Origin: Azolla caroliniana
Taxonomy: Eukaryota; Plantae; Polypodiophyta
NCBI GenBank assembly: GCA_043228905.1
Contig: JBHGNT010000003.1
Span: 5,084,001-5,148,000 of the forward strand
DNA: 64,000 nucleotides
Direction: 5' to 3'
In this document: positions 1 to 59,535 of the stretch, one piece after another
How the letters are laid out: the number at the start of each line of letters is the position of its first letter
Numbering within the stretch: position 1 is the stretch's first letter
Position numbers and translations under genes: made by a program
Notes under the pieces: generated by a model
Databases searched by the model: none
What the model was told of the DNA's origin: nothing
Seen by the model: only the letters and a program-made list of their open reading frames with translations

Positions 1-2165
1 TGCAATTTTTTCATTATATGCAATGTACATAACAAGTAGATTTATATAGTAGCAATGTAGCATGAGAGCTTATTGAAGTGTGTTCATGATTGATTAATAT
101 AGTTTCATTGCAAAAATCCAACTTAGACAATCAATCCTTAGTAAAGAGACATATTTACTAGAGTTTAGTAAATGAAGGAATGATCAATGCTCAGTGAAGA
201 GAATGATTTACAAATCCTCGTCCATACCATTTGTTGAAGCTAGAATGAAGAACAAATGGAAAGATGACCCCTAAGACATCCATGGTGGTTACTCTAGCCA
301 ATGATGGTAAGATGTCTGTTCTATTTACCAACGCATAATCCTAGACAAGGACCTAATTATTGAAAAGATTATAGTTCATGAGTATCATAATACACTTCAT
401 GCAAATGCTTTCTTAGAGATATGTGTTCTTCACATAGTTTATGCTAGACTCTCACTAAGGGAAGACAAATGAGTTAGTTTAAGCTGGACTCACTTAGACA
501 AGAAAGATGAGTCTGTTGATACTACACTTAATGGGGGAAGACAAATGATCTAGACTCGCTAAAGGAAGAAAGGGAGTGCACGCCCGATATCAAATTGATA
601 AGTGAAGTTGGTAGATCCATCTACGATTTTGAGTTGACAATCTCTCTTTTAAAGGAGAAGATGCCCCGAATTAAGGAGATTGATAAACTTTGGTTCAATA
701 TTTCAAAGTAACTCTAGTGGATTAAAAGAGAATATTTTACACTAGTCAAGGATCATGTAGTGGCGGACAATGAAGAAGAGAATGCAACTAATGATTCTTA
801 TTGCCTAGATATGAAAATTACCAATGATAGTGGGATAGCTACACATGAGGATAGTGCATAATGTGTACATATTGAAATATATGAGTATTATTTACTCGAT
901 GTTAGGAGAAAGGCAACTATGGTTTTAATCTCATACCTTTTCGAGATACAAATTTGTGACTTCTATGACATTTATTTAATTTTAGGCAAAAAAGACTTCT
1001 AAAATGTAAATATCAAGGTTTTTTATTATCATTTATAGAAATGCTCTATAGATGCAAAGATATTTTGGAAATAAAGTAAAAAACCTACGTCTTTTATGGA
1101 ATATAAGGTAATATTCCAATTGTGACATTTTATGCGAATCATTACTTGTCATGATCAATGCTCTCTATATAAGTCTCATTAGACATTGATCAAGTAGCAA
1201 CATGCAAAGTGAAGATAATGTAGTAATTCTCTTTAACAAAAGTATTTGGTATTAGACAAAAATATTTGAGTCTAAATGAATTGTGATAGAGAATGAAGGC
1301 CCAAGCTTGAATTCAACCAATTGGCAAAACTTGGCTTGGTGGTTGTAGAAAATGCTATTTCAATGCACATGGATATTATGATTGTGGCTTCTATTGTAGA
1401 GTTTGTGGCATATGAAGTGTGAAAATACTGATTATTTTGATGGTGAACTATTGATTATCGCAACGCATATGAATCATAGAGGATCGTAGAGGTTAATTTA
1501 TGGCAAATGCATTGCTTACATTGCATACTGCCAAATGTATACAATCTTCCATCCATGCAAAAGTGTTTTATTGATGGGCAATGGCATGTAGGTTGCCTTG
1601 AGTAACTGTGTTGAAACATCAAGACATTTTTTATGTGACACATGCTTTTTCTATACACCAAGGCTTTACCCTCCTCGTGGTATAAGTTAGTGTTGAACTT
1701 TGTTAGGTATTGGATCTATCGTACAATGGCGTATGACAAATAGGTTCTTAGCCGATAGCCTCCATGGAGTATAACAACATTGTCTAAGTTGAAAAGAAGA
1801 TTAACTTGGCCATTCTTGTACCTAAGCTACACGGCCACCTCGTCCTTTAGAAGAGTTGTAGCCTTTATGTAAGCCAATGCTACAACGGCTTGTAGGTTTG
1901 CAATGCCATAATATTCTAAATTCTAACTATTTGTAGTAGTGACAACAAGGATACTTTGTAGAGTCAAGATACCATAATATATAAACTACATTCAAGGAAA
2001 AAGTCAGTGCAAGAGAGATATCTATATCACAAGCAATGAAGATGGGGTTAAAACCCCCCCTTCTATATAAACTCCATGTGTATTAAACGTACCTTTAAAT
2101 TCTAAAATTTCTTTAAATACCCGCTATAGATAGTGTGATGCTAGAGATACAATCGGTAATCACGT

Positions 2166-2829
2166 TGTCGCGAAGATGCTCGCGTACATATGCTACTTGA
2201 GCGGGGCCACCGGGGCTACGAACCAGGGAGGACGGTCACGAATTTGTCGAAAAGATTTGACGATGTGGATAGGAGTCGAGGAAACCAATGCCACATTTTG
2301 AAAAGATCGAAAGATTGACAATTATAAGAAGTATAATAATATTGATCGATGGTAAAAGAAGAAGAGAAATAAGAAGTATATTTATAAGAAGAATTGTATA
2401 TTGATGGTGATATCACGTATTGAGCCCCCCCATTACACAAGCCTTACGAGGGTTTTTATAGGTCTATCTATGCACAAAACCATGGGCTTGGACCCATGGT
2501 TTTTGGGCACACGGTTTTTCTTGTGGCATGCACAAAACCATGGGCTTGGAACATGGTTTTGTGCACACGGTTTTGTACGGTAGTTTTCCTATGCCTTTTG
2601 AATATGAAAAGAAATACATAATATTTAAAGTATTTGGTAGTAGCCCTAATGGTAAGATAAATGCCTTCTATCTTGGAGATGCAAGGTTCAAATCTTGCTT
2701 GCACCCCTTTATATGCACTCGAATGCCACTAGGCCCTAGGATAACTTTTATATTTATAATCGTTTGTGTAATGTGCGTGGAATTACACTATTTCACAATT
2801 TCTCCCATTGGACACGCAACATCACGACA
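2166..2829 (-). mobile_element. 3' LTR of a tRNA-Trp-group Ty3/gypsy element (TGTCG...CGACA ends)
   Basis: Starts tgtcgcgaag (preceded by ACGT) and ends atcacgaca. It is followed by tccacccccacc, the complement of the same PPT seen at 21558 and 23290. It carries the family U5 motif gcggggccaccgggg and a minus-strand TATA at about 2455. Confidence 0.75.
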
Positions 2830-4320
2830 TCCACCCCCACCACACCGCACATCCTTCGGCATGTGCCAAGAAGAAAAGAGTGATGTGGTGGACTCAAAGG
2901 TGGTTGGCCTTTGATTTCTTTCTTTTTTACGCCTCGCTTGCATCAGCCTTTGTCCTCCATTTTGAGCACATGCATTCCTTCCACCCGAACCATCGTTGCC
3001 ATCCGATCAACCATATCATTCACTTGCCCTTCGCATTGCCATGACCACTTGGCATAACCCTTTTTGCTCCACCTGAGCGTAACCCTTCATGCATCATACA
3101 CGTGTTGCCTTCATCCCGACCATCTCCTTAGTCATCAAACTTCCTCTGATCGGCCTTTCTTGTCTCATGCTTGCCTTCCCTCATGCTCACTAGCCTCAAC
3201 CGGGTGTCGCGGTTCGTCTTCTTCAACCTATGGCTAGGTCGGCTCAACTTCTGTTTGGATCGGTCTTGACCATTCAACTTCTCACTTGGTCAGCCTTCGT
3301 CTGGATTTGCATTCGGCCAAATCTGACTCAAACGAACGGCTTCCGTCCGGGTCGGCTTCCATCTGGGTTTCGGTTGGGTCGGGTCCGGTTGATCACTTCC
3401 TGTCCGGGTTGGCTTCCGTTCGGGTCGGAATACCAACCGTGTCATCTTCCATTTGGGTTGTCTTCCGGTTCTTCCTTTCTTAATGCTCTCTGGCTCTTCA
3501 TCGAACTCTATTGTAGCTTTATTCTTGGCCTCCTTGTTGGCCACCGTTCCTCCGTATACGCTGGCTTCGACCCTCATCTCCTCGCCACCACTTCTGTCTC
3601 TCCGGTCTTATGTTGGCTCTCGGATACAACTGTTGGAGTCTCTAGAACCAGTGTGGAGGGATCCCTTCATCTGTGGTCATTCACCTCGTTGTCCTCATCT
3701 CCGTTTCGGTCCTTCAATTTCCTTTCACCACCTTCCATCTCTCCGGTCTCATGTTGGCAATCGGGTACAACTACCGAAGTCTCAGGAATAATTGTGGGGA
3801 GAACCTCGGCACCATTTGTCACCGTCTTCTCATCCATATCCATCTTTCGCTCAACGTTGTTATTCGCATTGTCTTCAATATTTGCTTCCCCACCACTTTC
3901 CGTCTCTTGGGTCTCATGTTGGCTCTTAGACACAATTGCCCAAGTCTCTAGATCAAGTGTTGGGAAATTCTCGACACGATCATTCGTCGTGGACTCTTCC
4001 ATAGCCATCTGCGACTCGATGTCGCTCCTCGTGGCTACCACCTCAATCACGTCGACCTCGCACTCTTTACATCCCTCGATCACGCAAACTTTGCTCATGC
4101 TTGCACCTTCATCACTCGATGTTTCAGACACGATGCATGTTCCGAAACATTTGTCCTCGGTTGAAGTGGCGTTCGAAGTCCTCGATTCATTGGTTTCATT
4201 CCTCGTTGTTGTTTCTTTGCAAGACGAGAAGGTGTCTTGTTCCACACCTTCTCTCGTGGTACCATCGTGGTACTGAACTTGGGCATTCATCTTGGCCACT
4301 TCATTAACCCGCATTCGTCG
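2830..4320 (-). mobile_element. Non-gag/pol internal region with an acidic low-complexity ORF (4314..3667)
   Basis: Lies directly inside the PPT. The E/D/T-rich ORF has a repeated ETxxVVxxxQHET module whose DNA resembles 24075-24130 and 24325-24378. Confidence 0.55.
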
Positions 4321-4329
4321 GGAGGTCTC

Positions 4330-5175
4330 TTCTTCTCATACATAGCCCGTTTTTCTTCTCCAACCACTCTTTTATAGATGCCCCCATGCATATGATGCAT
4401 GTGAGGGTGCAAGACATGCATGTAATGCATAAAATGCATGAGATGTATGTTTGCCATTTGGCGCTCATGCATTACATGTGTTGCATGATAACCATGTCAC
4501 TCATTCAAGCTCTCATGTATGAGAATTTACATGTAAAAGTATAATGATAAAATATAACTTTAAAAAATGACTCAGTTTTTTTTTCGTTTCACACTGAAAA
4601 TCTTCAAGACACCGTGCTTCACGATCAACCCGGCCCCAGTCCCGGTTCCATCACCGTCCGATCCAGGTTCCGGATCCGTCCAAAACATTATTTGAATAAC
4701 TTGGCCGTATCCATTTGTCCAAGTTATACAACCCAACCTTTTTGTGCTCCAAGCACATAGATAAAATATAAAGAGATATGGCTCTACTTATATACTCTTG
4801 AATCCTGATATTGTCTTATCTATGTGGGATATCCCAAAGTTTTGTTTTCCTCTTCTTCTTCTCAAACTTCACACTCACATAACTTGACACTAAGTTGTCC
4901 GTTTCACATGTAGTAAAATGCATTCAAAAGCTCTTGAAGACATCTATCTTTTCGTACCAAGATATTAAACTAATATAAAATAATATCTTCACTATTATTG
5001 TTTCATATTGTGTGTGAAGAACCACACTCGATTTTGTACATTCAATTTTCACATGTAGTAAAATGCATTCGAAAGCTCTTGAAAACATCTATCTTTTCGT
5101 ACCAAGATATTAAACTAATATAAAATAATATCTTCACTATTATTGTTTCATATTGTGTGTGAAGAACCACACTCG
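4330..5175 (-). mobile_element. Partial LTR homologous (inverted) to the solo LTR at 55431-56616
   Basis: 4370-4550 matches the reverse complement of 56165-56330, and 4800-5030 matches that of 55480-55680. It includes a ~146-bp tandem duplication (about 4902 and 5047) and joins directly to the chromovirus gag. Confidence 0.7.
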
Positions 5176-6206: not shown

Positions 6207-6233
6207 GAGCCGTTTGGTTGGACAGCAGTCCTA
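6179..6233 (+). promoter_or_regulatory. Putative -1 ribosomal frameshift signal (slippery heptamer plus stem/pseudoknot)
   Basis: G TTA AAC lies in the gag frame and pol is in the -1 frame. An 11-bp stem (6192-6202/6213-6223) follows after a 6-nt spacer. Loop tagga can pair with tccta at 6229-6233. Confidence 0.7.
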
Positions 6234-9967: not shown

Positions 9968-9978
9968 GGGGGAGATAG

Positions 9979-10432: not shown

Positions 10433-12764
10433 ATGGCTTGTCTTCCAGAGGAGAGGGTCACGAACTCCATCTTGCGGGCATGGTGTCACGTACGACATCA
10501 CTTGGTCAAACACACACCGGAGACACTGATCGAGTGGTCTAGACAACCATTATTTTGGAACCCTCAGGTGCAAACAAGTGACGACATGATGTTAGGCCAG
10601 CTTAAGGCCCTAGCATGGGGAAAGTTGGCGCAAACAGGGCTTCACTCTTTAGATTATTGGAGACGCACGACGACTTTAGGAGGAGCCCAGGAGGTTCCAT
10701 TCCCTCCCCTCAAGGGAGCCATGAAAATGCGGAGATTGATAGTTGAGGCAGTTGATAGGGTTCCGATGGGGGAGGTGAGAGAAGATGCTTGGTTTGGTCT
10801 CTTTGATGAGGCTGGAAGGGTTAAGTTGTTGAAGGGCGTGACGGGTCGGACTTTTCAACTGCATCTAGATGACCCCTTACGCAATGGCTGGCGTACATTG
10901 GGCATCCCTAATGAGGTGCTCATTACCTTTTGGAAGGGTCTCTAGCGTCTCCACTTGCCGGAAAAGATAAAGTTTTTTTGGTGGCAAATCGGTCATAATG
11001 TGGTTTCCGTTGGTGAATGGCTAGGTAAACATGGCGGCCCGTTAGGCTGCCCACTTTGCCATTCACCTATTGAGACTCTGAGGCATTGTCTGTGGGATTG
11101 CACTCACTATCAAAAGGTATGGGATAGAGTGACTCGCCTCCTTGTGGCATGTGAAGTGGAAGGAACAACATCGTGGTGTGTTGCGGCATGGCTTGACCAC
11201 TCCGTTGATAGGTGGACGGACGCCTTCAACGCGGATAGTTGGTGCTACGTATGCATGAGAGGCAAAATCACCAAGATTTGATTTGAGAGAGGCTTGCAGT
11301 CTACATCCCTAGGCTCTGGGACATTTGGATGCTGATCGCAGGCTTCGCCCTGTGGTATGTATGGAAAGTGATCATGGTGCGGCCCCCGGAGGAAGTGATC
11401 ATGGACATATGGTTTGCGCTTATCAGCTGCCTACGAGGGCAATTGGACAAGGTTTGTAGCCATTCCACTGACGTGGGTACTACCCGTTTGCGCTTTTGGC
11501 AGAAATGGCGGAACATGCTGTCGTGAAGATTTTCGTCCACGAGTGGAAACCCGAGCAACGAGGGCCAGAGAGCGATGTGCAACGTTGCACATGTACATAA
11601 TGTATTTGTAATAGTAATAAAGGTATAAAGGTGATGTGGTCTTGTACGCACAACCACGCGAGAGAGAGAGGTACTATGCGGTACATAGGTACCTAGTTGT
11701 TTGTGAGGAGGTGGGAGTTAAGGGGGGCCATCGATCTCACCCTCCCCAAATCAAGGCAAATATCCCCTTTGAATGAAGGGGGGATATTTTAGTCTCGTTT
11801 TTGTAAACGGTCTTCCCTCCTTGTGCTATAAAAGGAGAGGGAAGACACCATTGTGGAGGTTTCCCATTTTGCGTTAGAGGGTATACCATTAGATTTAGGG
11901 TTAGTTACATTTCTTCTTCTTCTTCTTCTTCTTCTTCTTCTTCTTCTTCTTCTTCTCCCCCCTTCGTGTTCGCTTAGGTTTTGCTTCAGCTCGTCTCCTG
12001 CGCAAGACCCCGCTCGGCACGACAAGCCCGTGAGCTCCCCGACCGGCGGCTTGGCAGCTGACGACTACTGTAACCTACCTTGGTCCGGCTCGAAGCCGGG
12101 AATGTATTCTTCCTCTTATATATATACATTTGCGTTCGTCTGTGTATATTCGCGTCTCTATTGGTGTCGGGTGCTTCCCCTTTCCTACGTTTCCTGTACA
12201 TAAGGGCGTGAGCCGGGTCAACCTGTGTGTGTGTGCGTGCGTGTGTGCGTGCGTGCGTGTGTGTGTGCGAGTCGGTGTTAAGCGCGCGTCCCCTCTCTTT
12301 CTCTCTCTCTCTTCGGTTGCCTCCGGTGTGCTTCTGGGATGCCCCGGAAACGGTGAAGTACGACTTCCTACGCTCCGTCACTCTCTAGTCCAAGACCCCC
12401 GTGGTCCCGCCTTTCTCCACGCACGCGCGTAACAACGCGACAACGCCTATGGTGACACAAGGAGGAAGTGGCCCAAGGTGGAACTACCAGCTCCCCACGC
12501 TGGTTGTTTCCAGCTCACTTACCACCCTCACTTTGTTGTTGACCCCAGGAGTTGTCTCGTAGTAGCCATCATTGAAGGGCATTGTTTTTAGCTATAGGCA
12601 CTTACATTAAGTAGTCAGTCCGAAAGGCGATGTAACTAGTCTCATTTTCTTGAACTTGATCGGAGGGAGATTCCCCGATCTATGTTTAAGCCTGCTTGTA
12701 CACTCTCTTTGTAATAATCCTTCCTAATTAATGGGAAAGTAGCTTCATTGTTGAAAAAAAAAAA
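10433..12764 (+). mobile_element. 3' fragment of an L1-like LINE (ORF2 C-terminus with zf-RVT, 3' UTR, polyA), interrupted by a solo LTR
   Basis: CPLC..ETLRHCLWDC zinc finger and A-tail at 12754-12764. Homologous to the reverse complement of 47336-49794. Confidence 0.88.
11519..12442 (+). mobile_element. Solo LTR, tRNA-Trp gypsy group, 4-bp TSD
   Basis: Ends tgtcgtgaag...aacgcgaca with flanks ATGC/ACGC. The empty site is visible in the second LINE copy near 47655. Related to LTRs 22558 and 27693, and contains (CTT)n. Confidence 0.9.
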
Positions 12765-16861: not shown

Positions 16862-16896
16862 GGGGCAACATGTGTAGTATAATATGTGAAACGTGA

Positions 16897-17996: not shown

Positions 17997-20870
17997 CGCC
18001 CCCTCAAGCTCAGTGTGAGGCATTTGACATCCGCTTTGGCTTTCGTCGACTTCGTGTGCTTCCGTTTGGCCTTCAACTTTTCTTCGCGGTGGTAATCTCG
18101 GTTCCTCCCCCTCATGCCGGTGATGAAGGCTTGTAGTGTGTGGGCGAAGGTCGACTACTTCCACCCATCGTGAGTTACGAGCCGCTTCGGTGGAGCTCTT
18201 GGGCTCTTGTTCGGCTGCTACCTTCATCGCGAAGGCATAGTGATGGGTTATGTACTCGTTGTAGCCGAGCCGAGTGACGTAGCTCTAGATGAGTGTCGAA
18301 GTTTTTTGTTCGCTGATGTGAGCCCCTTCTTTGCTTTGGGTGTCCGCATGATGGGTACACTGAACTCACTGTGTAGTGAGGGAGCCGACACATCCGAATC
18401 ACTGTCATCGGGGTGATCAACTTCGTATTCAGGCATCTTACCTTTGCCTTTGTCCAAGTTCGTACTTGGTCGTGACATGCTTGGGTCGCGTGGGGGCTCT
18501 TGTGGCCCACTAGGCCTTGCCGTAATCGGACTTTCTTCGAAAATGTGTTCGAAGTGATCTCCATCTTCTACCTCTTGTTCGGCGGATTCTGGGTCGAGCG
18601 GAGTCGGAGTCGAAGTTGTCTCTGGTGCGTACTAGGATGCAGACTTGTCAAGGGTAAAGGGTTGTAGCACTTGTATGCCTTCTTCTCGGATGAGTATCCT
18701 ATGAAGATACAATCCTCCGACTTCGCGTCGGGCTTCTGTCATTGTTCTTTCGGGATGCGTGCATTCGCAATGCTTTTGAACACCTTGAGGTGCGACAGGA
18801 TCACCTTCCTTCCGACGAGGAGCTCGTATGGAGTTAGCTCATGCACTCCATTAACGGTGCATCAATTCATGAGATAGACGGTCGTGGATGCCACATCGGC
18901 CCAATAGAAGTTTGGCATGTGCTTCTCATGTAACATGGCCCGTGCTGCCTCGAGTATTTGCTGATTTTTCCTTTCGGCTACTCCATTTTTTTTGTGGTGT
19001 GTGTCGGCACGAGAATTCTCTCCGAATGCCTTCACTTTGGAGGTAGGAGGTGAATTCTTCGAAGAAGTACTCCTTTCCTCCATCCGATCATAGGCATCGA
19101 ATATGCCGACCGGTTTCTTTTTCGACTTGCTCCTTGAGCTTTTGGAAATGGCAGAACACTTCACTCTTCTTCTTCATTGGGAAGATCCACGCGTAGCGCA
19201 AGTACTCGTCGATGAAGGTGACGTAGAATCGGCATCCGTCGATCGTCGGCATTTGAGCCGGTCCCCATACATCCGAGTGTATGATGTCGAGGAGGCCTTT
19301 GCTCGCGTGGCTCTCCTTCGGGAATGGGAGTCGATGTTGTTTGCTGAGTTGACATGCTTCACATATTCGGTCGACTCGTTTCGACTCGAATGTTGGAAGT
19401 CCGATGACGACTCCCTTGGTTTGCATTGCTCGAAGCCATTGGAGGTTTATGTGGCTGATTCTCTTGGGCCACAACTCGATGCTAGTTTCGGTTTTGAGAC
19501 CTTTAACGTACATTGTCGATTTAACCTCGTTCAAATCGAGGATGAACATTCGACCATCTATCCGCCCCTTAACTATGAGTCGGCCATCTTTCTCGATGAA
19601 GCATCCTTCGTTGTTGAACCGGACTTGCATACCTTGCTCCACAATTTGGCCGACTGAGACCAAATTCTTCGTTATTGTGGGCATGTGCAAGACATTCTTG
19701 ATGCAGTTGCTTGGCCTTCATTGCCGAATGGAACATTGTCGATGTGCCGAATCAGATGTGTGGTGTCGTCACCCATCTCTATGACGCCGGGTCGATCGGG
19801 TGTGCGCAAATCACAGAACCACTCTTCGTGGGATGTCATGTGATGTGAGGCGCCGGAATCGACGAACTACTTGGAGGTGCTTGCAGAGTCGGATGTCGTC
19901 ATAGAGTTCGCCCTATACCTCATTACGAATAGTCCGCCGTAGTCATCATATTCGGAGTTGGTGGCGTAATTTGTGAGTTGTCTACTTGTCGAAGCCGACT
20001 CGCTTCTTCTTTTTCGGCACTCCTCGCGGTGGCCGATTTTGCCATAATAATTGTAAGTTGCGGGCCTCATTTTCCAACGTTCTTCGGGATGGAAGCTTCC
20101 CCTTCTTCTGAAGGTACCTTGATGGCTTCCGTCTTGTTGTCAAAGGTTTGAGTTCCATTCGTGTGATGGGTCTAATCGACCTCTTCTACCGCCTCGACCT
20201 CGTCCTCGGCCACCATCCGAATTCGAGAAGAACATTTGTCCTTCTGATGTCTTAGTTTTGGTTTGGACGTGGTTCTCTTCAACCATTAGCATTGATTGAA
20301 GGTCGTAGAACGAAGGGGGGATTTCCCTCGCCAAGATTTCCGTCCTCAACAAGTCGAATCGTTGTGTGAGGCCGGCCCAAGCATACTTGAACCATCTCGT
20401 CTTCATCGACGTTTATTTTGATGGAGCCAAGTGAGTCGCAAATGCTCTTGATCTTTGCGGTGTAGTTCAACACAAACATGTCTTTTTGCCAAATGTTGTT
20501 CAACTCTTGTCGGAGTTGAAGCTTTCGGGGGGCGTGTTGGTGGCGAACATTTTCTTTAAGTTCACCCACGCTTCTTTAGGCGTATTGGCGTCTCGAATGT
20601 GGCTAAGCATGTGGTCGTGGACGCATGTTGCCAAGCAATACATGACTCAACTCGCCGCTTGCTCCCATGTTGCGTAGTCGGCGTTCTTTGAGTCAGGTTG
20701 ATTTTCTTGAGCGTAGTTAATGTAGCTCCAATACCCTTTGCCGACGAGGTATTGGGTCATCTTGTACTCCCAAGATGAATAATTACCCCGGTCTTGCTTT
20801 TCACTAGGGAGCGAGCTACCCATTTGTGTGTTCATTTTGATGTAGTGTCTTCCTTCGATCACGTACACGT
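16897..20870 (-). mobile_element. Ty1/copia element lacking its 5' LTR and most of RT/RNase H
   Basis: gag (NYSSWEYKM..YL, zinc-knuckle remnant), protease VDSGASHHM, GAG-pre-integrase and integrase (HSDVWGP, FID, NGVAERKN), then a jump to ...LEG and the PPT ttgagggggcg. 3' LTR 16897-17996. Confidence 0.88.
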
Positions 20871-22010: not shown

Positions 22011-22475
22011 TGATTTTCTTCTCCTCTCCGACGGAAGACATGTATTGGATGGTTCTTATACTACAATAATCGGATGTTTGGAAGAGGACAAGGTCTGGTC
22101 TACAATATCTTCTTTAATAGTTTGGGAATTGTGGAAGTTTATAAACTTATATGTAAATGTGTATTTCAGAAAGTCAAACAGAACGTGGTTAAGTTAGTCA
22201 AGGAGATATGGTTACTGCTCTTACATACTCTAATAGGTCAATATGAGGCTATAACTAGTGAGCCTATTGTTGTGATTCGTAAACAACAACAATTTCAAGA
22301 AATTTGGAAAAAGGCAATGGTCTTCACCTCTTTTGGAGAGAGAATAAAGTGGAGATATGCTCCACTTGTCGGTTGATGTGGGTATGAGGATTATAATCTA
22401 TTGTATGAATTCATTGTAGCCTTTGGGCATCTTTCCATTAATACCAAGGTGAATCTTTATTTTTATTTTTTTTTA
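22005..22475 (+). mobile_element. 3' fragment of the second LINE family
   Basis: Homologous to 33143-33490 and 34120-34190. Confidence 0.8.
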
Positions 22476-27052: not shown

Positions 27053-27073
27053 CCCTAAACCCTAAACCCTAAA
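27053..27073 (+). repeat. (CCCTAAA)3 plant telomeric repeat inside gag
   Basis: ccctaaaccctaaaccctaaa; it creates the stop that ends ORF 27069..27653. Confidence 0.85.
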
Positions 27074-27670: not shown

Positions 27671-27688
27671 TTCACATCGGGTTCACCA
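27671..27688 (-). promoter_or_regulatory. Primer binding site complementary to the 3' end of tRNA-Trp
   Basis: The plus strand reads ttcacatcgggttcacca, one transition from the plant tRNA-Trp 3' end TTCACGTCGGGTTCACCA as recalled from memory. Confidence 0.8.
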
Positions 27689-40161: not shown

Positions 40162-40179
40162 TTGTATGACATGCACAGT

Positions 40180-44922: not shown

Positions 44923-47900
44923 GATGTGACTTCAACTAGGTAGGGGTCCAAGGTCTTCCACTACGTAAATATTTGAAATTTACAACCATAATAGCATGGA
45001 TCTGGCTTCCTCCAGAGGGGTCATTCATAATTTATAAATATGGAAGCACAACATATACAGTTTGAGGTCAACGAAGGGGATGTAAAAAATATTTTTAACG
45101 GATTGCTTGACATACACAAGAGGGCATTGCCTTTAAAGAGTATATCCAAAAGAGAATAAGAAAAAGACTAGATCTTATTCATTAAATACTAGTAAGGAGT
45201 ACTTTTTAATATGAACGGAATGTACAAGATTTAGAAGGCTTTAGATATATGTATAGAGTAACAAAGGTCATTAACTACGATTTGATCAAATTATCGATAT
45301 GATGTAAAATACTAAATCTGATTGAATGTGATTTAGTTTTATCTAGGGATGACCGGCGTTAGTGTCTACACAAGTACGCCTTGTTCACCCATGTGATTGT
45401 GTAGGGTTATTCACATGGGGTGTGGGATGACAAGGGCCATGAAGGAAGAGACAAATTAGTTTCCTGGACGGGTTTTAATATTACCTTACAATGATGTAAA
45501 CATCACGGACTTTGTACGAAGTAAAAGTTCAGATTAATGAATATTCAAGCGAAAAAGAAAGAACTTATATTATCGTGAGCCAGGTCTCTCAACATTGCAG
45601 GAGAGAGATCATATCCCAAAAGGAAGAACCTAATGACTCGTGTATGTTGCTTTTCAATGTAAATATTATCAATATTCGCTTAATATTTCTTGAATTATTT
45701 TTTTGTGGCTAATGATTTGCAAGATATCATAGCAAATCCCTAAGACATCTCTCTCTTTATGCCTTGGAAGCAAAAACGAGTTTGAAAATGTCTAAAAGTG
45801 TTTTCCCATAAAATTTACTAGATCTCATGGTAGATCCCTAAGACATCTCTCTCTCTCTTCCTTGGAAGCCAAAAACGAGTATGAAAATGTCTAAAATGGT
45901 TTTCTTATCAAGTTTAAGTGTCATGGAACTTTGAGGTTCCATCAAATTGTACTACCACATTTTTTGCCAATCTCCCCCATTAACTTATCACTTTACAATA
46001 AATATATAATCATCCTATTGCTTGATGCATTAAGAATTAACTCTTGCTTCCTTTTCTTTTGGAATCAATAAGAGAGTTGATCACCCAAGAGAGGCACGAG
46101 AGGTCGTAAGGTGTTCAACCAATAGTGCAAAAACGAGACTCGGGATGACTTACAGACCAATCTGAGTAGTTTAAAGCAAAACAAAGTTCAGTCCACCTAG
46201 TAGAAGCAACAAGCTTAAGTTAGCAATCCTATCATTTGTAAATTCTCCCACAAGATGCTTGAAAATGGATGGCTCATGGGTGAACCCATGTTGTCGCAAT
46301 TGATACCCTTTTCATAGGAATAGTAACATTGAAAACAATCGTGGTTGAGGGATCTAGAAGAAATAGCACATGTTGAAAAATAAAAAGATGACAAAGATGA
46401 AGTATTGGAAGAAATAGCTAAGACGACATATGAACAAGAAGCGGACAAAGTTAACACTGTAGAAGATGGAGAAAGTAATACAATTGCATGACAAGCATGT
46501 AGTAATGTTTTGCGTAAAGGGTAATAATTCAAATATTTCCTCCATTTTTGTATAAAAATGACAAATTTGTCCATTTCACCAATACCCTTGTGAACTTTTA
46601 AGGCATTTTGCGAAATGACGTTAAAAAAACTAGAATGTTTTGCCGTTAGAAAGTTTTTGTAAAGAAAAGACTCAAACATGTAATAGGCATTAGATGGATG
46701 TAACAAATATTTAAATGGGTGGTACAAATCAACAAAATTATTATGGACATTTCTATTATTATGTCACCATAATAGATATTTGAGGAGAAAAATTGGGAGA
46801 CCTTTTCTTGGCATCACTAGAAATAACAAACACATGGTTTTGGTTATAGACATGTTCGTTTGTATCTACCCCACAAGCATCATTAACTATGGTATCTAAT
46901 TCATAAAAAACATCCATTTTATCCTCTTCTTCATTGTCCACCAATGTATTGTCATCATCTAGGTGTAGACCATTCTCTTTTTATCTTACTTTAAGCATCA
47001 TAACAAAATGTTGTGACATTCTTAATTGAAGCGAGCTCCTCTTCCGAAAGAGAGATTGTTTATTTTTCACTACATGGTTGAACTTTTTCGAGTATAAATC
47101 ATACCAAAGGAGTATATGAACTTCGTATTATTAAAGCTCACTAATTGACCACAGATTCTTCTTTATTCTCTTGAGAAGGGTATCATCAACCATGTTAAGG
47201 ACGTGCTTTGAAAGAATTTGCACTTGTGGTGTGGTACCAATAAACTTTACTCAAAAATATTCTAGTTAGTCAATGACTCCTTTTCTATGACAACCTTAGT
47301 GATCAAGAATGAACACCTTTACTCATTAGCATTAGTTTTTTTTTTCCCAAAATGAAGCTACTTTCCCATTAGTTAGGAAGGATTATTACAAAGAGACTGT
47401 ACAAGGAGGCTTATACATAGATCGGGGAATCTCCCTCCAATTAGGTTCAAGAAAATGAGACTAGTTACATCGCCTTTCGGGCTGACTACTTAATGCAAAT
47501 ACCTATAGCTAAAAACGGTGCCCTTCAGTGATGGCTAGTACGAGACACCTCCTGGGGTCGACAACGATGGGAGGGTGGTAAGTGAGTTGGAAACAGCCAG
47601 TGTGGGGGCTAGTAGTTCCACCTCGGGCCACTTCCTCATTGTGTCACCATAGACGTGTTCTGCCATTTCTGCCAAAAGCACAAACAGGCAGTAACCACGT
47701 CATTGGAATGGCTGCAGACCTCGTCCAATTGCCCTCGTAGGCAACTGACAAGCGCAAACCATATGTCCATGATCACGTCCTCTAGGGGCCGCACCAGATC
47801 CTGAAAAACCTTTAGGCAACGCGCTTTCCATACATACCACAAGGTGAAGCCTGCGATCAGCATCCAAATGTTCGGGAACCTTGGGGATGCGGACTGCAAG

Positions 47901-48948
47901 ACTCTCTCAAATTGAATCTTGGCGATTTTGCCTCTCATGCATATGTAACACCAACTATCTGCATTGAGGGCATCCGTCCACCTATCAACAGAGTGATCAA
48001 GCCATGCCGCAACACTCCACGATGTTATTCCTTCCAGTTCACATGCTGCAAGGAGGCAAGTCACTCTATCCCATACCTTTTGAGCTTGAGGGCAATCCCA
48101 TAGACAATAATGCCTCAGACTCTCAATAGGTGAATGGCAAAGTGGACAATCTAACGGGTTGCCACGTTTATCTAACCATTCGCCAAAGGGAACCACATTA
48201 TGACCAATTGCCACCAAAAAAACTTATCTTTTTCGGAATGTGGAGACGCCAAAGACCCTTCCAAAAGGTAATGAGCACCTCATCAGGGATGCCCAATGTA
48301 CACCATCCATTGCGTAAGGGGCCGTCTAGCTGCAGTTGAAAAGTCCGGCCCAGTTTAGTGTTGTAGTTGAAGAAATGACGAAATCTGCCATCATGTTTCC
48401 GCCTAAAATCCCATGGATCCCATTCTAGTTCAACAAGGGGCTGACAACCATATACCCATAACTTCCAATGGGGTTCCACCTTAGCAACATCTGGGTCTGT
48501 CTTCTAGGTGTTACCAACTTGCGCCACCACGCGGATAGGGTGCCAAGAGCCCTTACTCTGACTCTCCCCAAAAATTGTATCTCTTCCCGATCCGCTCACG
48601 CCCTTCAACAACTTAACCCGTCCAGCCTCATCAAAGAGACCAAACCAAGCATCTTCTCTCACCTCCCCCATCGGAACCCTATCAACTGCCTCAACTATCA
48701 ATCTTCGCATTTTCATGGCTCCCTTGAGGGGAGGGAATGGGACCTCTTGGGCTCCTCCTAAAGTCATCGTGTGTCGCCAACATCTATAGAGTGGAGCCCT
48801 GTTTGCGCCAGCTTTCCCCATGCGAGGCCCTTAAGCTGCCCTAACATCATGTCGTCACTTGTTTGCACCTAAGGGTTCCAAAATAATGGTTGTCTAGACC
48901 ACTCGATTAGTGTCTCCGGTGTGTGCTTGACCAAATGATGTCGTACAT

Positions 48949-49735
48949 TGTCGAGGAAATCCTCGTAGATACATAGAAGTTGGGCAGGACCACGGGGGTC
49001 TTGAACCAAGGAATCAAGATGTGAGGAGGAAGAGTCTGTGGTTTACGTGAGCCCTGAGAGCACGGTTTAAACAGAAAGATTAATGAAACGAGAGAGAAAG
49101 TGTAAGAGGGTCGTGCGTAGACACAGGCGCAGGCAAATATGCTAAGAATAACTTGTGCTAGGTGGATAAGTTTCTATTAATTAATATATGTGCGTAGCGC
49201 TGTGGGTGATTACAACCGGATCAGTGCCGGTATTCGAGCGTAGGCTCTATAGTAGTCAGATACGAAGTTGGGTAGGCACACAGAAGGTCAATCCCTTGGC
49301 CGGGAGCACTCGGGCGTCTGACGCGAGCAGGGGAACCGCCTTCCGGTGATATGTCGTAGGACTCCTTGTCCTCTTTTTCCCTGTTTCCTTTCTCCTCTCT
49401 TCTCTCGATTACCTCCCTGTTTCTTTCTCCTCTCTAGCCGATGTCCCCAAAACAATCAAAGGTCGTCCCTTTTATAGCACAAGGAGCGATCGTTACAAAG
49501 CATTCATGACTTGTTGCTTTCCCTTCCTAGATTCTCCCCTGATTCGCTCTCCTCGTAACTCTCCCTACTTACGCGATGTCTGAATCCCTAATAATGCCTT
49601 AACTACCTAGTACACCTCCTTCTACCTATGCCTAGTACTTACACTAGTTAATTCGCTAGGGTCGTGCACTCGTGCACACCAGTGTTCTCGCGCGTTTCAC
49701 ATTGTTTCCACCTATGGCCCAGAATCTTCACGACA
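48949..49735 (-). mobile_element. Solo LTR, tRNA-Trp gypsy group, 4-bp TSD
   Basis: Ends tgtcgaggaa...cttcacgaca with flanks ACAT/ACGT. The empty site tcacgtacg is present in the LINE copy near 10486. Confidence 0.9.
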
Positions 49736-52416
49736 ACGTGACACCATACCCGCAAGATGGAGTTCGCGACCCTCTCCTCCGGAAGACAAGCCATCTTGGG
49801 TGGGACTCCGCTCATGCAACACCAATTCAAGGAGTCGGGCCAAGGCCTACCATACTTGGGAGTCCCTACCTACAACCTATTGTGAAGTAGAACCTTCCAA
49901 CACCCCTTACCTGGTAGGAGGCATCGAACCACCATTTTGGCTAGCAATGCTTGGCTCTGCATTAAGGGGTCTATGAGGCCAAGCCCCCCTTTGGCCCGTG
50001 GTTGTGTTAACCAATGCCATGACACTATGGCGGCAGCCATCGGATTGTCCTTACTTGACCATATAAACCCCCTGATGGCAGCCTTAATCGTGTGTAAACC
50101 TAAAGGGTCCATAATCCAGAAGGAGACTGAGTGCCACATGGTGGTGAGCATCACTTGATTCGCAATAAGAACTCTACCAACGAAGGATAGTTTAGTCTTG
50201 CTCCATTGGTTCAACTTCTTGCTTAGTTTGGCTTGCACATGGGACAATTGCGCTCCCTTGGGGATTGCCCTCGCCATCGTAAATCCGAGGTACTTGAATG
50301 TTGTCCCATCAAGGACCCATGCAAAATTAGCATGGGGATGCCACCTTGGCACTAGCTGCCTGACAAAAGTCCTCAACAAGATGTTCAGCTCGCTACAAAT
50401 TTACATCATCACCCTGCAAGAAAAGGACCATATTGTCGGCATATTCAGATAACAGAAGATCTTCAGTCACATTGGGGATGGGCAATCCCCTCAATCCGCT
50501 GCTTGGTGGTTGTAAGTAGGCAGAGAACACCTCGGTTACAAATAGATAGAGATATGGGGCTAGGGGACAACATTGCCTCATTGAACGATGTAGTTGGAAG
50601 GCGGGACCCCTAGCACCAGATACCAACACACTATTGGTAGTAGTCCGATAGAGTGCAAAAGTGCAATTCCTCCATTGTTGGGGAAGGCCCATAGCTCTCA
50701 TCACGCTTTCCAAAAAGGGCCATAACCCCCTATCGTAGGCCTTCTCAAAGTCTAACATCAGAATAGCCGAGCTCGATATAGCGCGATCTGCCAATGCCAT
50801 AACTTCCCAAAGAAGTAGCACATTATAAGAGATACACCAACCCCTGATAAACCCTGTTTGATTCTCATGTATGATGTCCGGTAGGAAGCTTGCTATTCGC
50901 CTACCTAGGACTTTTGTGAGTATCTTGTATATCGTGTTAAGGATCATGATTGGACGCCATTGACGCAGCTCGAGGCTTCGTCTTGCCGCTTTAAGGATGA
51001 GATAGATCATCCCCTCAGCCATGCCAATTGGCATTGCTCCTGAGGTCCAAATCTCCCGAATCCCATCTTCCAATGACGGGATAACAGTTTCCCAATGAAT
51101 CTCAAAAGAAATTCGTGAGAGACCTTTGGGGTCGGGGCATGCTCCTCTCCGCAAATCCCTAAGTGCCTCCGAGAGTTCTAATCGAGAAATGGGGCATTCG
51201 AGCACAAGTTCCATCTCATGGGTTACCTTGGGTTGAATGCAAGCCAACATTCTCTCAGCCAGCTCCGTGTTTTGCCTAATATGCATAGGTGCGAGCAGGT
51301 CGCGATAGTATTGTGTTGCCATATGCAGAATCTCATCCTTGTCCTTCGTTATTGAGCTGTCTGGTTTGTGCAGCCCTTGTATATGTCCACCACTACCCTT
51401 GGGTGCCCTAGAGTGAAAGAAATGACGGTTGACCTTGTCGTCTGGTCTAGCCCACCATGTTGCGGTCCTTCGAAATAGCATTTGGTTCTTCTCCAGCATC
51501 TCTTCCTGCAGCTTCAACTTTGCTTCCTCCAGCTTAGCTCTAGACCAATTGCAGCTAGGGTATGCTTGTAGGGTTACCTTGGGTTGAATGCAAGCCAACA
51601 TTCTCTTAGCCAGCTCCTTGTTTTGTCGCATATGCATAGGTGCGAGCAGGTCGTGATAATATTGTGTTGCCATATGCAAAATCTCATCCTTGCCCTTCGT
51701 TATTGAGCCCTCTGGTTTGCACAACCCTTGTATATGTCCACCACCACCCTTGGGTGCCCTGGAGTGAAAGAAATGACAGTTGATCTTGTCGTCTGCTCCA
51801 GCCCACCATGTTGCATTTGGTTCTTCTCCAACGTCCTTTCCTGCAACTTCAACTTGGCTTCCTCCAGCTTAGCTCTAGACCAATTGCAGCTATGGTCTAC
51901 TTGTAGCAACTGTTGCACGGCCACAACGGACTTCCATAAGTTTGTTTAAATGGCTCTAGCCTGCTAGAGGGCCAACTTGGTTTCATGTTTTAAAAAAGAG
52001 GAGGAGAGGGCCAGTTTCTTCTGCAAATCCTCACTGACCGATTCACTTACAATGGTCTCCCACCATATGCTCTACAACCCTGCTTTCACCTTTGCACTCT
52101 TCATGATCTTTGTGGGAATTTTCACATTGAGACCCCCCTTGCTACCGCGGGGTGGGTTAAGATCTAGTCTCATCGGCTGGTGATCCGAGAATGTAAGACC
52201 TGCCAAGATAGTGAAGGAGCCCCCCAACTCTTCAAGGGACAAGCTGATGTATATGTGGTCTAGTTGTGCAAGACTACCACCCCTAGCATTCACGGGGTGT
52301 AGTGAATATGAGCATCTCCTAAGGGAAGAGCCCCATGTATCCTTCACCCCAATTTTTCCAACTAGGAAAACCCATGAGTCCAACTCTGCACCATGAAGCG
52401 GTCTTTGGGTCCCCCC

Positions 52417-55267: not shown

Positions 55268-55430
55268 TAACCCCCCTTGGGAGGGGGGTGAAGCTTATTC
55301 TAGGTTTCACCCCCCACCCCAACAATAGCGATACAGTTTGGCTCCTAAGCGGTTGCGTATCCTACACCCCTCTAGCCCAGAGAGACGACGCCAAACCAGG
55401 TGATGGTCTGCCTATTTTGCCCTTGATCGT

Positions 55431-56616
55431 TGTCGTGAAGATTTTCGGCAATAGTGTGAAAATCACATAAAACGTACCAAATCGAGTATGAATCACATAA
55501 AACAATAATAGTGAAGATAACATTTTAAATAAGTTTAATATCTAAGTACAAAATGATGGAGGTCTTCAAGAGCTTTCGAATGCACTTTATTACACGAGAA
55601 ACAGACAACTAAATGTCAAGATATGAGGGTATAAAGTTTGTGAAAGGAAAAGAGAAAACTGTGAGATATCCCACATAGGCACGACAAATACGGCTCTCAT
55701 CATATATAAGGTAGATCAAAAGCTATTATCTTTGTGTCTATGTGTGGAGCATAGAGAGTTCAAGGTAACTTGAACTAAGAGTGGAGGTGGCCTAACTACT
55801 TGTAAAGGTTTTTGGCCAACCAAAACCGGACCGGCGATGGAGCCAGTGATCCGGCGGTAGTCACTTTGGTGGCACACCGGCAACCGATGATCCGGCGGAA
55901 CCGGCATCTGGCGACATCCAACGACAACAAGGTGACGGCATCCGGCAAGGTGGCAGCCACCGGTACGACATCCAACGCCGGTGAGGCAACGACATCCGGC
56001 GAACCGACGATTAGATAAATAAATATATAAATATATATATACACACACACACACATATACATATATATATACAAGGAGGGCAAGTAAGGATTCAAACCTT
56101 GCACCTCCAAGTTAAGAGTCAATTGGCTTACCACTAAGCCATGACATTTATGTGAATTTATATTTCTATCATTGTACTTTTACATGTAAATTCTCATACA
56201 TTAGAGCTAAAATGAGTGACATGGTTATCATGCACCACATGTAATACATGGGCGCCAAATGGCAAACATGCATTTTATGCATGTCTTGTACCCTCACATG
56301 CATCATATGCATGAGAGCATCTATAAAAAAAGGGACGAAAAAGAAGAAGGGTTAGGTTTTTTTTGTTATGAAATTAAGAAGAAGAGAATTCGTTATCGAA
56401 TTGATCGTGTAACTTGTTTCTTAAAATCTAAAATCAAGAGTTCAATCTTAATTTCTCTCAATCTAAAGTCAAGCGTTCTATTCTATCTCAAGCTCTCTCT
56501 CTCTTTCAATCTAGCTTAAATACTTTCTCGCTAAAGCTTGCGCCAACTTCAAGTCCTTCCGGTCCAGAACCCCGACGGTTCTGCCTCACGATCCGCGTGT
56601 AGTGATCTTCACGACA
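55431..56616 (+). mobile_element. Solo LTR, tRNA-Trp gypsy group, 4-bp TSD
   Basis: Ends tgtcgtgaaga...tcttcacgaca with flanks TCGT/CCGT, TATA at about 56321, inserted in LINE ORF1. Confidence 0.85.
56076..56147 (-). other. tRNA-Lys(CTT)-like degenerate sequence within the LTR
   Basis: A-box TGGCTTAGTGG, loop CTCTTAA, B-box GGTTTGAATCC with a paired T-stem. The acceptor and anticodon stems are poor. Confidence 0.65.
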
Positions 56617-59535
56617 CCGTGCCCATCCGGATCCACGACTTCACTAATATGAGGTCACCACCACATTCACGTTCCATCATGAAGGGGGCATTTGTCAACA
56701 TCTCCTCAGGGGTGGACGATACCTGTTGTGGTTACATCTCCATCGGGGTGGAGAACACGAACTTGGGGGACAAGGATTCGCATGGGGACAATGTTGCTGC
56801 CAACGCTTTTGGGTCGCCATCCCCTAGCCCTTGGAGCAATGTAAATCTGTTGGACGCTCTCACCTATAGGTTGTGCATCTCCGCACTCCCGGAGAGGATC
56901 TTCACTCGTTTCAAGGGTTGTTCGTCCACACTTGCTGGTGACAAGGTAGGAGAACTTCTTTCTACGGGACAGTCTTGAAAGAGGGGGGGTGAGGTTGCAC
57001 CTAGGCTTCAAAGTTTCCCCTGCTTCTTAACGGGGTGCCAAAGAGCCTCGCTGCCCTTGGGTGGCGCGGCCTTCCATGAGGTTCGAGGTCCCGAGTTTCC
57101 CTTTCCAGTCTTATGAGGACATTCCTTAGCTAGGTGCCCTTTCTGTTTGCAGATGAAAAACTGCCCATGGGAGTCCCTCATATACCATATTCACCATTGT
57201 GAGACCTAGCTCCTTAGAGTATAGCCTAATTCTGGATGGAATTCCATGGAGGGAAGGCACTAAGATGCATAGCTTGGGCACCTCCGCTACTGTATCTGCC
57301 ATGGACATTTTTTTAGGGCAAATCGTCCTTATTTGTTCGCCAAAGAAAGGAAGTAGATGGCACAAGTAGGGAGGGAGGCCGGGAAATGTTGTGGTGATCA
57401 CCCTAGGATTGTTAAGTTTCCGCAACTCCTCAATTGGATTGAACCTTGGTGACCACGATTGGAGCAGCACCTTACTGTACTTTAATTCAAGAACCTTGAG
57501 CTCTACCAATGGTTGCACCAGCGCGCCATCACCCAATTCAATGTGGAAGAAATTTTTCCCCAAACCCCGGACGCTCTTGATCGGAGGCATGTTTTCCATC
57601 ACAGCCACTTGGAGCATGTCCCGAACCATGCCACGACTTGGTCTACCGACAAGGAACCTACATACAAAGGAAGTACGACGTAGGCGTTCGATTTCCTCCG
57701 CTAAGAGCCGATTGGCCTCTAGGGACAAGGTGACGTCAAGATCTGTTTCGCCTTCTTCATGTAACATAGTGGGTTTTGTTGGAAGTTCAGTTTCTCCCAC
57801 CATTGCACACTATGGTTCTGTTTTTTTTTTGTTTTCCCCCCTTCCCTTTTGTCGTGTTTCATTTTCTTTCTTCTTCTTCTTCCCCCCCCCCCCCCCCCCC
57901 TTTTTTATTTTATTTTATTTTTTATTTAAATAAATGTATATATATATCCATTTTTTTAGAATTAATTAATTAATTAATTAATTAATTTAAATATTATAAA
58001 TATAAAGCACTTCTTGAACCCACTCCTCGAACCCACTCTTCGAAAGCACTCCTCGAACCCACTTCTCAAACCCACTGTAACCCTAAACTACTCTACATAG
58101 CAACGACGACGGCGAGGGGGGGGCTATGGCAACCACCGCCCTTCGGAAAGTTGTGCTGAGATGACCTTCACATTCAGCTCCTGCTCTTGCACTCACTTTG
58201 TTCTGCTGTGTGGTGGCCGCTGCTCCGCTCCTCCTCCACTCTTCTATTAACACTCTTCCCCGAAGGCCGCTGCCTACCTGCCGCTGCTCCGCTGCCTCTC
58301 TTAGGTCTGACTCTCTCCTACTCGAATGTTTTCTTCTATTAATGCCCGTTTTATTTCTCCTTCATTTTATGTGGGGGAAGTTTTTTGGATTTATCGTCCA
58401 ATGTTTTACCTAGCTTTCCCTAACTATTCTAGAATGTGGATCGTCTATGGGGTTGGAATAACATCTATTTCGTGTTTGTGAGACAACTAAGAGTATGTTT
58501 GAATATATTCCTAAGCCTAATAGAAAATATAGATAAAAGAACCAAAAAAACTCAAACCTTAACACCTAATTACGCACTCAAGATGTCAAAACTTAACCCA
58601 ACATGCTTAATCACTTAAATATAGGCAATAAGGTACATTGTCCCTTCAATTTTTACCAATTTCTAAGTGTATAGAAATAATTAGCATATTTTAGCATTAA
58701 TATTAATAACTCATGAAAATTTCAAAAACAATGGCAACATATATCTCTTTGCTTTGGATTGAATATTTGTGTAATCTAATTGGGATTGGCAAATGCATTT
58801 AACTTTAGTTGGATTTTGGTCCACTATTGTTGGGCATGAAAACATATTTGTGAGCCACCATTCACCCTCTATAAATCTATTTGTTGAGAAAGTATATGTT
58901 AAATGTCTTGTAATGCTTAGGTGTATGACAAGGGACATGAAATTTCGGAGAATACAACAATGTAATTTCATCAAAGTAGCTTAGAAGCTGCTAATTGATA
59001 CAACCACTCCATGACATTAGATGATGGATGCAATGACCTCCTACAAATGTTTTGTGAGAAAATCTCCCCCAATGAAATTATTTGGCAATTCTACATGGCA
59101 TATCACCTTGTGGAGGGAGGTTTACTCCAATTTGTCATATGTTTCCTTGCTCCATGATAAGCATTTCCCTTATCATGGCTCAAACAACAACAATTATCAT
59201 TTGGTATAACTAGTGGATCTCCAACTATGAGTGTGACAAGGATCATGGGTGGGTATGCACAAGAGGTCCATTTTTGCTATCAATGTCCCACAACATGAAC
59301 CCCATGAAATGTTGGCCGTCAATGAAAAACCCAACAATGTCTCAATGATTTCTATGACAGTAGGGACCTTTTTAACCCCAAAAAATGATCATAAGTTAAA
59401 TCATGTACAATGATCATGGGTGGGTATGCACAAGAGATCCATATTTACTATCTGGCCAAACCATCAATGTCCCACAACATGAACTCCATGAAATGTTGGT
59501 TGTCAACAAAAAACCCAACAACGCCTCCATGATTT

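What the first reader, a model, noticed from the sequence alone, without database searches (positions are those of the whole stretch)
2162..56620. LTR retrotransposon group that inserts at CpG: 4-bp TSD centred on CG at 6 of 6 sites
Seen: six insertions with TGTC(G)...CGACA ends but divergent LTR bodies. Their flanks are ACGT (2162, one side), ATGC/ACGC (11515/12443), ACGT (20867, one side), CCGT/CTGT (22554/28425), ACAT/ACGT (48945/49736) and TCGT/CCGT (55427/56617). Two targets are confirmed by empty sites in the paralogous LINE copy. In all four two-sided cases the only mismatch is a C>T or G>A change in CG/CCG context, the footprint of methylcytosine. The other LTR families here have ordinary 5-bp TSDs (CCCCC, TTGTA). 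Known: most plant LTR elements make 5-bp TSDs with weak sequence preference, while CG-centred 4-bp targets are described for insect elements such as ZAM and tirant. Inference: this integrase, whose C-terminus at 21634-22010 has no chromodomain, reads CpG or mCpG directly. That would steer it into CpG-rich, methylated TEs, and at least four sites are inside other TEs. I cannot establish whether this has been reported.
Basis: partly seen in the sequence, partly recalled or inferred. Interest (0 to 1): 0.8.

Follow-up and report, generated by a model that had tools for sequence, protein, structure and literature searches.

The report
Known CG-targeting Phygy-type retrotransposon copies
Six copies of a plant jumping-gene family do all sit in 4-base targets centred on CG, but this preference is already published for the moss 'Phygy' lineage to which they likely belong, and nothing here shows that the enzyme needs the CG to be methylated.

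Summary
All ten flanks read as stated. Two empty paralogous sites fit a 4-bp duplication best. Outside the window, 28 of 38 independent flanks of the family have a central CG against 3.3% background, and 35 of 38 have CG or its decay products. Contigs from four sequencing runs give the flank consensus ACGT.

It is not new as a phenomenon. Neumann et al. 2019 (REXdb) list the Ty3/gypsy lineage Phygy with '4 bp (100%) (NCGN)' targets, no chromodomain and a tRNA-Trp primer site. These elements match on domain order, missing chromodomain and target. A tree against REXdb could not be run.

Likely mechanism: a foamy-virus-like integrase cuts with a 4-bp stagger around a bendable CG step and reads neighbouring bases; the preferred site is the palindrome C-ACGT-G. 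The methylation reading is unsupported: the C>T changes arose after insertion, and 4 of 6 sites in other transposons matches the 76% of CpGs that lie there. Small additions: the extended consensus, and relatives in liverworts, a fern and Chara.

The parts
2162..2165 (.). Target flank ACGT of insertion 1 (one side only)
2166..2829 (-). 3' LTR of insertion 1 (664 bp), preceded in element sense by a polypurine tract at about 2830-2840
2830..4340 (-). 3' internal region of insertion 1, not pol-like, related to 23290-24660; right boundary approximate
10488..10491 (.). Empty target ACGT in LINE copy A, paralogous to filled site 48945/49736
11515..11518 (.). Left TSD ATGC of insertion 2
11519..12442 (+). 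Solo LTR, insertion 2 (924 bp), inside LINE copy A
12443..12446 (.). Right TSD ACGC of insertion 2
20867..20870 (.). Target flank ACGT of insertion 3 (one side), next to a copia gag start
20871..21557 (-). 3' LTR of insertion 3 (687 bp); polypurine tract at about 21558-21568
21637..22011 (-). Integrase C-terminal 125 aa (weak SH3_Tf2-1 match, acidic tail, no chromodomain); element cut off at about 22005 by a LINE fragment
22554..22557 (.). Left TSD CCGT of insertion 4
22558..23289 (-). 3' LTR of insertion 4 (732 bp, 95% identical to the 5' LTR); polypurine tract at about 23290-23300
24634..25571 (-). Start of pol (pre-RT region and first part of RT, 84% identical to relative P0139 over 107 aa); the match ends at about 24634, the rest of RT, RNase H and integrase are absent
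25662..26573 (-). gag C-terminal/protease region with a weak DUF4100 match (21.8 bits, under the 27.9 cut-off)
26769..27671 (-). gag region, broken
27671..27688 (-). Primer-binding site, 4 nt inside the 5' LTR; 17 of 18 bases complementary to a CCA-ending plant small RNA listed as miR894 (18 of 18 in most relatives)
27693..28424 (-). 5' LTR of insertion 4 (732 bp)
28425..28428 (.). Right TSD CTGT of insertion 4
47653..47656 (.). Empty target ACGT in LINE copy B, paralogous to filled site 11515/12443
48945..48948 (.). Left TSD ACAT of insertion 5
48949..49735 (-). Solo LTR, insertion 5 (787 bp), inside LINE copy B
49736..49739 (.). Right TSD ACGT of insertion 5
55427..55430 (.). Left TSD TCGT of insertion 6
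55431..56616 (+). Solo LTR, insertion 6 (1186 bp), in the 5' part of LINE copy B; the most divergent LTR, with both family end motifs
56617..56620 (.). Right TSD CCGT of insertion 6

Best explanation
These six insertions are copies of one chromodomain-less Ty3/gypsy lineage, likely Phygy, whose integrase likely picks 4-bp CG-centred targets by DNA bending and base contacts, without needing methylation. Shown: 4-bp duplication, central CG, extended preference A-CG-T followed by G (palindrome C-ACGT-G), gag-protease-RT-RNaseH-integrase order in relatives, no chromodomain. Inferred: as in the foamy-virus intasome, two active sites cut 4 bp apart, which forces a sharp bend that unstacks the central pyrimidine-purine step; symmetric side-chain contacts would narrow the choice from any such step to CG and favour the flanking A/T and C/G. 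Candidate readers (inferred, untested): the acidic residue three after the second catalytic Asp (E in 56, D in 3 of the 59 matched among 66 relatives), at or next to PFV Ala188, and a 14-residue C-terminal loop with invariant L, Q, H, K and F (65 of 65). Landing in other transposons follows from where CpGs are. The TSD mismatches are later deamination of methylated cytosines.
For: Target data: (among 28 CG flanks: +1 A 18, +4 T 18, +5 G 19, each against about 26% in CG-context background, P 2e-5 to 4e-6). Published Phygy features match: 4 bp (100%) NCGN, no extra domain. Relatives P0139 and others carry RT, RNase H, integrase and no chromodomain; tails after the GPY motif are 36-97 aa in 66 proteins. 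The predicted integrase of relative P0121 (pLDDT 83) is closest to PFV integrase (Foldseek E 1e-15; core Z about 20, rmsd 1.6-2.5 A). PFV makes 4-bp TSDs, unstacks a central YR step and uses Ala188 and Arg329 for base contacts (PMC4422553 passages). ZAM integrase binds CGCGCg directly in vitro (PMC2527525 abstract), so CG-centred choice by an integrase alone has precedent.
Against: No tree with REXdb Phygy sequences was possible (the FASTA supplement was too large to read), so membership rests on features. The tRNA-Trp identity of the primer is recalled; two tRNA scans found no gene to confirm it. The only near-complete unit seen is about 7.3 kb, slightly under the Phygy range of 7656-9968 bp. 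The alignment to PFV has a one-residue gap at Ala188, so the residue match is uncertain by one position, and the C-terminal domain was not aligned residue by residue to Arg329. No methylation data were available, so a methyl preference on top of the CG preference is not excluded. The metagenome flanks come from a few assemblies whose host may not be the window's species.
Confidence: 0.8

Rival explanations
1. The integrase prefers methylated CpG (for example through easier bending of the methylated step or a methyl contact), which steers copies into silenced transposon DNA without a chromodomain.
For: Four of six sites lie in other TEs; all four two-sided TSDs carry deamination-type changes; no chromodomain. 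PMC6911290 notes Phygy nested in Tcn1 elements. A 1992 paper on CpG methylation affecting retroviral integration in vitro appears in a reference list (title only).
Against: TE nesting is no higher than the 76% of CpGs in TEs; TSD mismatches postdate insertion and fit the 18% CpG divergence of the element's own LTRs; no methyl-binding family found in the integrases scanned; ZAM and tirant choose CGCG in Drosophila, which has almost no CpG methylation (recalled).
Confidence: 0.1
2. A host protein that binds the CACGTG (G-box/E-box) palindrome tethers the integration complex, and the CG-centred TSD is a by-product.
For: The extended consensus is C-ACGT-G, which is the core bound by plant bZIP and bHLH factors (recalled).
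Against: The cut falls at a fixed register inside the motif, where a bound factor would block it; many sites keep only NCGN (CCGT, CCGC, TCGC, ACGG); palindromic motifs extending past the TSD are the rule for integrases themselves (PMC3276498 abstract and passages).
Confidence: 0.04
3. The target rule is right but these elements are a sister lineage of Phygy (a wider streptophyte and fungal Ylt1-like group), not Phygy proper.
For: REXdb defined Phygy from Physcomitrella only; named relatives found here are from Riccia, Adiantum, Chara and the fungus Smittium, none from Physcomitrella; the unit length is slightly below the Phygy range.
Against: NCGN was the one exception among all plant lineages in that survey, and the elements match it together with the lack of chromodomain; Phygy has since been called in a liverwort (PMC12885004 passages). 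Absence of Physcomitrella names may reflect unannotated TE proteins.
Confidence: 0.15
4. The pattern is an artefact: the CG bases belong to the LTR ends, or the TSD is 5 bp.
For: None found.
Against: Empty-site alignments, internal junctions without these bases and variable first and last TSD bases.
Confidence: 0.01

Closest known systems
Phygy (non-chromovirus Ty3/gypsy lineage, REXdb; Neumann et al. 2019, PMC6317226: passages, section 9, Additional files 4 and 5 read; files 1 and 3 not readable)
   Same: 4-bp TSD with NCGN preference (186 elements, 100%), no chromodomain or other extra domain, compact gag-pro-RT-RH-INT, tRNA-primed (tRNA-Trp 81%).
   Different: Defined from Physcomitrella; this host was not identified here (earlier unchecked notes call the genome a fern). 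The paper gives NCGN only; here the preference extends to C-ACGT-G. Insertions 1 and 4 carry a 1.3-1.5 kb 3' region that is not pol, and insertion 4 is non-autonomous.
Selgy (REXdb, Selaginella)
   Same: Non-chromovirus, 4-bp TSD (96%), compact.
   Different: No sequence preference reported, tRNA-Ala primer, about 5 kb.
ZAM and tirant (Drosophila errantiviruses; PMC5408687 passages, PMC2527525 abstract)
   Same: CG-centred palindromic target (CGCG); integrase itself binds the target.
   Different: Insect elements, target CGCG rather than ACGT; their integrases lack the GPY/F motif that this family has. Works alike; no test of kinship was run.
Prototype foamy virus integrase (PDB 4e7k, 3oym; PMC4422553 passages)
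   Same: Closest solved integrase fold; 4-bp TSD; central pyrimidine-purine step selected.
   Different: PFV preference is weak and covers any YR step; here the step is nearly always CG.
Tcn1 chromovirus (also present in this window, 5119-10432)
   Same: Ty3/gypsy of non-seed plants.
   Different: Chromodomain, 5-bp TSD, self-priming; only about 29-30% RT identity to this family.

Membership tests
Phygy (REXdb) | Ty3/gypsy order gag-protease-RT-RNaseH-integrase | tested here: met
   Window has gag, protease region and RT start in order; close relatives P0139, P0138, P0144 continue RT-RH-INT.
Phygy (REXdb) | No chromodomain after integrase | tested here: met
   No PF00385 in the window's C-terminus, in six scanned relatives or among the listed Pfam domains; the window's Tcn1 integrase scored it at 1e-11 as a control.
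Phygy (REXdb) | 4-bp TSD | tested here: met
   (two empty sites); one perfect two-sided ACGT/ACGT in L014, while L013 and L038 have mismatched sides.
Phygy (REXdb) | NCGN target preference | tested here: met
   6 of 6 in the window; 28 of 38 right flanks and 5 of 5 left flanks in metagenome loci; four runs.
Phygy (REXdb) | Primer site for tRNA-Trp | tested here: inconclusive
   15 relatives share an 18-nt primer site complementary to an abundant CCA-ending plant small RNA (PMC5846777 table). That this RNA is the tRNA-Trp 3' end is recalled; ARAGORN found no tRNA in 31 viral and 57 prokaryotic loci.
Phygy (REXdb) | Length 7656-9968 bp, coding region filling most of the interior | tested here: inconclusive
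   Window copy is 5867 bp and deleted; the one repeat unit seen on a contig is 6518 bp plus one LTR, about 7.3 kb, and may be a collapsed assembly.
Phygy (REXdb) | Clusters with Phygy references in an RT-RH-INT tree | not testable with these tools
   Reference FASTA too large to read; no protein named from Physcomitrella among the hits listed.
Selgy (REXdb) | 4-bp TSD without sequence preference, tRNA-Ala primer, about 5 kb | tested here: not met
   Strong NCGN preference; pol alone is over 1100 aa and the unit about 7 kb.
Chromovirus Tcn1 | Chromodomain, 5-bp TSD, self-priming | tested here: not met
   about 29-30% RT identity.
OTA/Tat (TatI has 4-bp TSD and tRNA-Trp primer) | Additional archaeal-type RNase H domain | tested here: not met
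   Only one RNase H region in P0139, P0138, P0144, P0154, P0167; TatI features.
   No methylome or assay; indirect tests gave no support.

The most novel reading that the evidence does not exclude
The integrase of this lineage reads a methylated CG inside a C-ACGT-G palindrome through its conserved C-terminal loop, making it a chromodomain-free, DNA-methylation-guided retrotransposon that places itself in silenced DNA across bryophytes, ferns and Chara.
Probability: 0.1. Interest if true: 0.7.

Novelty: new member of a known kind. Interest (0 to 1): 0.17.

Why it matters
The CG-centred 4-bp target is the one sequence preference already reported among plant LTR lineages, so the finding mainly confirms it in another genome. 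It adds a sharper consensus (C-ACGT-G), intact pol relatives and two candidate base-reading sites in the integrase. These make the open question testable: how this integrase reads CG, and whether methylation matters. My searches found no mechanistic study of Phygy targeting.

Tried and rejected
No whole genome is held for this window, so the genome-wide logo was replaced by contig loose ends and a metagenome motif scan. The first read-laying on 7.9 kb showed only 24 of more than 10,000 loose-end rows, none at an LTR boundary itself; two rows ran through a related LTR end into CCGT and ACGT. The first automatic flank count (25 of 35 CG) had visible register errors and was redone with a weighted end rule. 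In one search, 61 of 120 loci were set aside as chance matches by the 12 LTR bases upstream of the motif; of the 59 kept, 5 were dropped (3 contig ends, 2 unclear LTR ends), 15 were primer-site junctions and 39 host junctions collapsed to 38 unique. L003 and L068 look like chance rows and L085 may be off register; all three were left in and count against CG. Attempts to name the primer tRNA failed; Rfam found nothing in the window. A paper search for DUF4100 returned nothing. PMC7466625 (passages) did not link RLG2/RLG3 to Phygy or give TSDs. PMC2864245 (passages) describes fungal Ylt1-like elements without target data; PMC1838911 (passages) lists the small RNA without naming a tRNA. No tree was built, because no Phygy reference was on hand. 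Earlier findings held nothing on this target preference.
Full report
**1. Observation.** Self-comparison of the window and an alignment of the LTRs show six insertions: two truncated elements with one 3' LTR each (2166-2829; 20871-21557), three solo LTRs (11519-12442; 48949-49735; 55431-56616) and one two-LTR element (22558-28424, LTRs 95% identical). The LTR bodies diverge, but all seven begin TGTCGTGA in element sense and carry a shared motif about 33 nt before the terminal GACA, so they are one lineage.

TSD length: with the insert removed, a 4-bp duplication aligns best to the paralogous LINE at both testable sites. LTR boundary: at internal junctions the LTR meets the primer-site spacer or the polypurine tract directly, without CGT. 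Enrichment beyond the window: a scan of metagenome contigs for the LTR motif gave 120 loci. Using only LTR-internal bases, 59 were kept as family; 5 were dropped, 15 were primer-site junctions and the rest gave 38 unique host flanks. Of these 28 have a central CG (background 3.3%, P about 1e-33) and 35 have CG, CA or TG. Five of five left-hand host flanks are NCGN; of the three two-sided loci one matches perfectly (L014) and two do not (L013, L038). In four sequencing runs, 49, 40, 29 and 39 contigs leave the LTR at 27693, and their consensus ends in ACGT each time, preceded by C in three. Among the 28 CG flanks, A precedes the CG in 18, T follows it in 18 and G comes next in 19, each against about 26% expected. 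The preferred site is therefore the palindrome C-ACGT-G, with NCGN as the core. Other LTR families in the window have 5-bp TSDs.

**2. What the elements are.** The two-LTR element runs on the minus strand: 5' LTR, primer site (27671-27688), broken gag, protease region with a weak DUF4100 match, the start of RT, then a deletion that removes the rest of RT, RNase H and integrase. The integrase C-terminus at 21637-22011 belongs to the neighbouring truncated copy. Intact relatives exist: P0139 (84% identical over the RT fragment, 72% over the integrase C-terminus) has RT, RNase H, H2C2 zinc finger and integrase core and no chromodomain. Named relatives come from Riccia sorocarpa, Riccia fluitans, Adiantum nelumboides, Chara braunii and the fungus Smittium. 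The ESM Atlas places the protease region with DUF4100 clusters of streptophytes and basidiomycetes (a lead only). I did not identify the host; two earlier unchecked notes on this genome call it a fern.

**3. Comparison with what is known.** Neumann et al. [quoted passage not shown] Their Additional file 5 lists Phygy as 186 elements, '4 bp (100%) (NCGN)', 7656-9968 bp, tRNA-Trp primer in 81%, no extra domain. Jedlicka et al. 2019 (PMC6911290, passages) report 4-bp TSDs as the commonest in Phygy and GC-rich centres in 4-bp TSDs. Phygy has also been called in a liverwort (PMC12885004, passages). The elements here meet domain order, absence of chromodomain, TSD length and NCGN. The primer site is complementary to an abundant 18-nt CCA-ending plant small RNA listed as miR894 (PMC5846777); its identity as the tRNA-Trp 3' end is recalled, not shown. 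The defining tree could not be run because the reference FASTA and Additional file 1 were too large to read; file 1 may hold per-element TSDs that already show the extended motif. Selgy, Tcn1 and Tat fail on defining features.

**4. Mechanism.** The model of a relative's integrase (P0121, 85% identical to the window's fragment) is closest to prototype foamy virus integrase. PFV also makes 4-bp duplications; its target DNA is sharply bent with the central pyrimidine-purine step unstacked, and Ala188 and Arg329 contact bases (PMC4422553, passages). ACGT fits this geometry, with CG as the unstacked step. Bending alone would also allow TA and CA, so extra base contacts are inferred. Two conserved candidates are the acidic residue three after the second catalytic aspartate (one-residue uncertainty against PFV Ala188, whose numbering I recall) and a 14-residue C-terminal loop with five invariant positions in 65 of 65 relatives. 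ZAM integrase binds its CG-rich target directly in vitro (PMC2527525, abstract), a precedent for an integrase choosing CG unaided.

**5. The methylation idea.** The two copies of a TSD are identical at insertion, so C>T and G>A differences record methylation afterwards. The element's own LTR pair differs at 18 of 100 CpG columns against 19 of 630 others, so such mismatches are expected. Outside these elements, other TEs cover about 53% of bases but 76% of CpGs by my rough annotation; four of six sites in TEs is no enrichment (P=0.63). Six sites give little power, so a methyl preference is unsupported rather than excluded (about 10%).

**6. Verdict.** The phenomenon is published for Phygy, and these elements are most likely further members or a close sister group. 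Searches for NCGN with retrotransposon, for Phygy, and for moss insertion preference found no mechanistic study and no extended consensus, which leaves a modest, testable question. Interest 0.17; novelty: new member of a known kind.

Noticed in passing
window 27671-27688 (-); L009, L010, L036 and others: The family's primer site is the exact complement of the abundant plant small RNA catalogued as miR894 (18 nt, ending CCA; PMC5846777 maps it to gypsy repeats), probably a tRNA 3' fragment that could prime or silence these elements.
   Followed up: partly
window 4340-5200 (-): LTR-like remnant about 80% similar in two blocks to the solo LTR at 55431-56616. It contains an LTR-start-like sequence ending at 4611 followed by CCGT, a possible seventh NCGN junction; ambiguous and not counted.
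   Followed up: partly
window 2830-4340 and 23290-24660 (-): Insertions 1 and 4 share a 1.3-1.5 kb region with internal repeats between the coding part and the polypurine tract that does not match pol; insertion 1 has a 222-aa acidic open frame there (3670-4335) with no Pfam match. Possibly a non-autonomous subfamily.
   Followed up: partly
window 5119-10432 (+): Tcn1-type chromovirus lacking its 5' LTR, with a 229-bp tandem duplication (9479-9936) over the chromodomain-coding end; a solo LTR of the same family sits at 52417-52858 with TSD CCCCC.
   Followed up: partly
window 38691-40209 (-): A seven-in-absentia (SINA) E3 ligase gene (Sina zinc finger, E 4e-29), the only host gene I recognised in the window.
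   Followed up: no
window 10433-12764 (+) and 47336-58400 (-): Two copies of one LINE family, about 90% identical, that together host three of the six insertions and one Tcn1 solo LTR.
   Followed up: partly
window about 17990-20866 (-) and about 59900-64000 (+): Two degenerate copia elements; the first is cut off at the insertion-3 flank.
   Followed up: no
L036 and L037 (one 12,351-bp contig): Two LTRs 6518 bp apart, each preceded by a polypurine tract and followed by a primer site: a tandem array sharing LTRs, or a collapsed assembly.
   Followed up: no
window 29077-29500: Solo LTR of another family with the 5-bp TSD TTGTA.
   Followed up: yes
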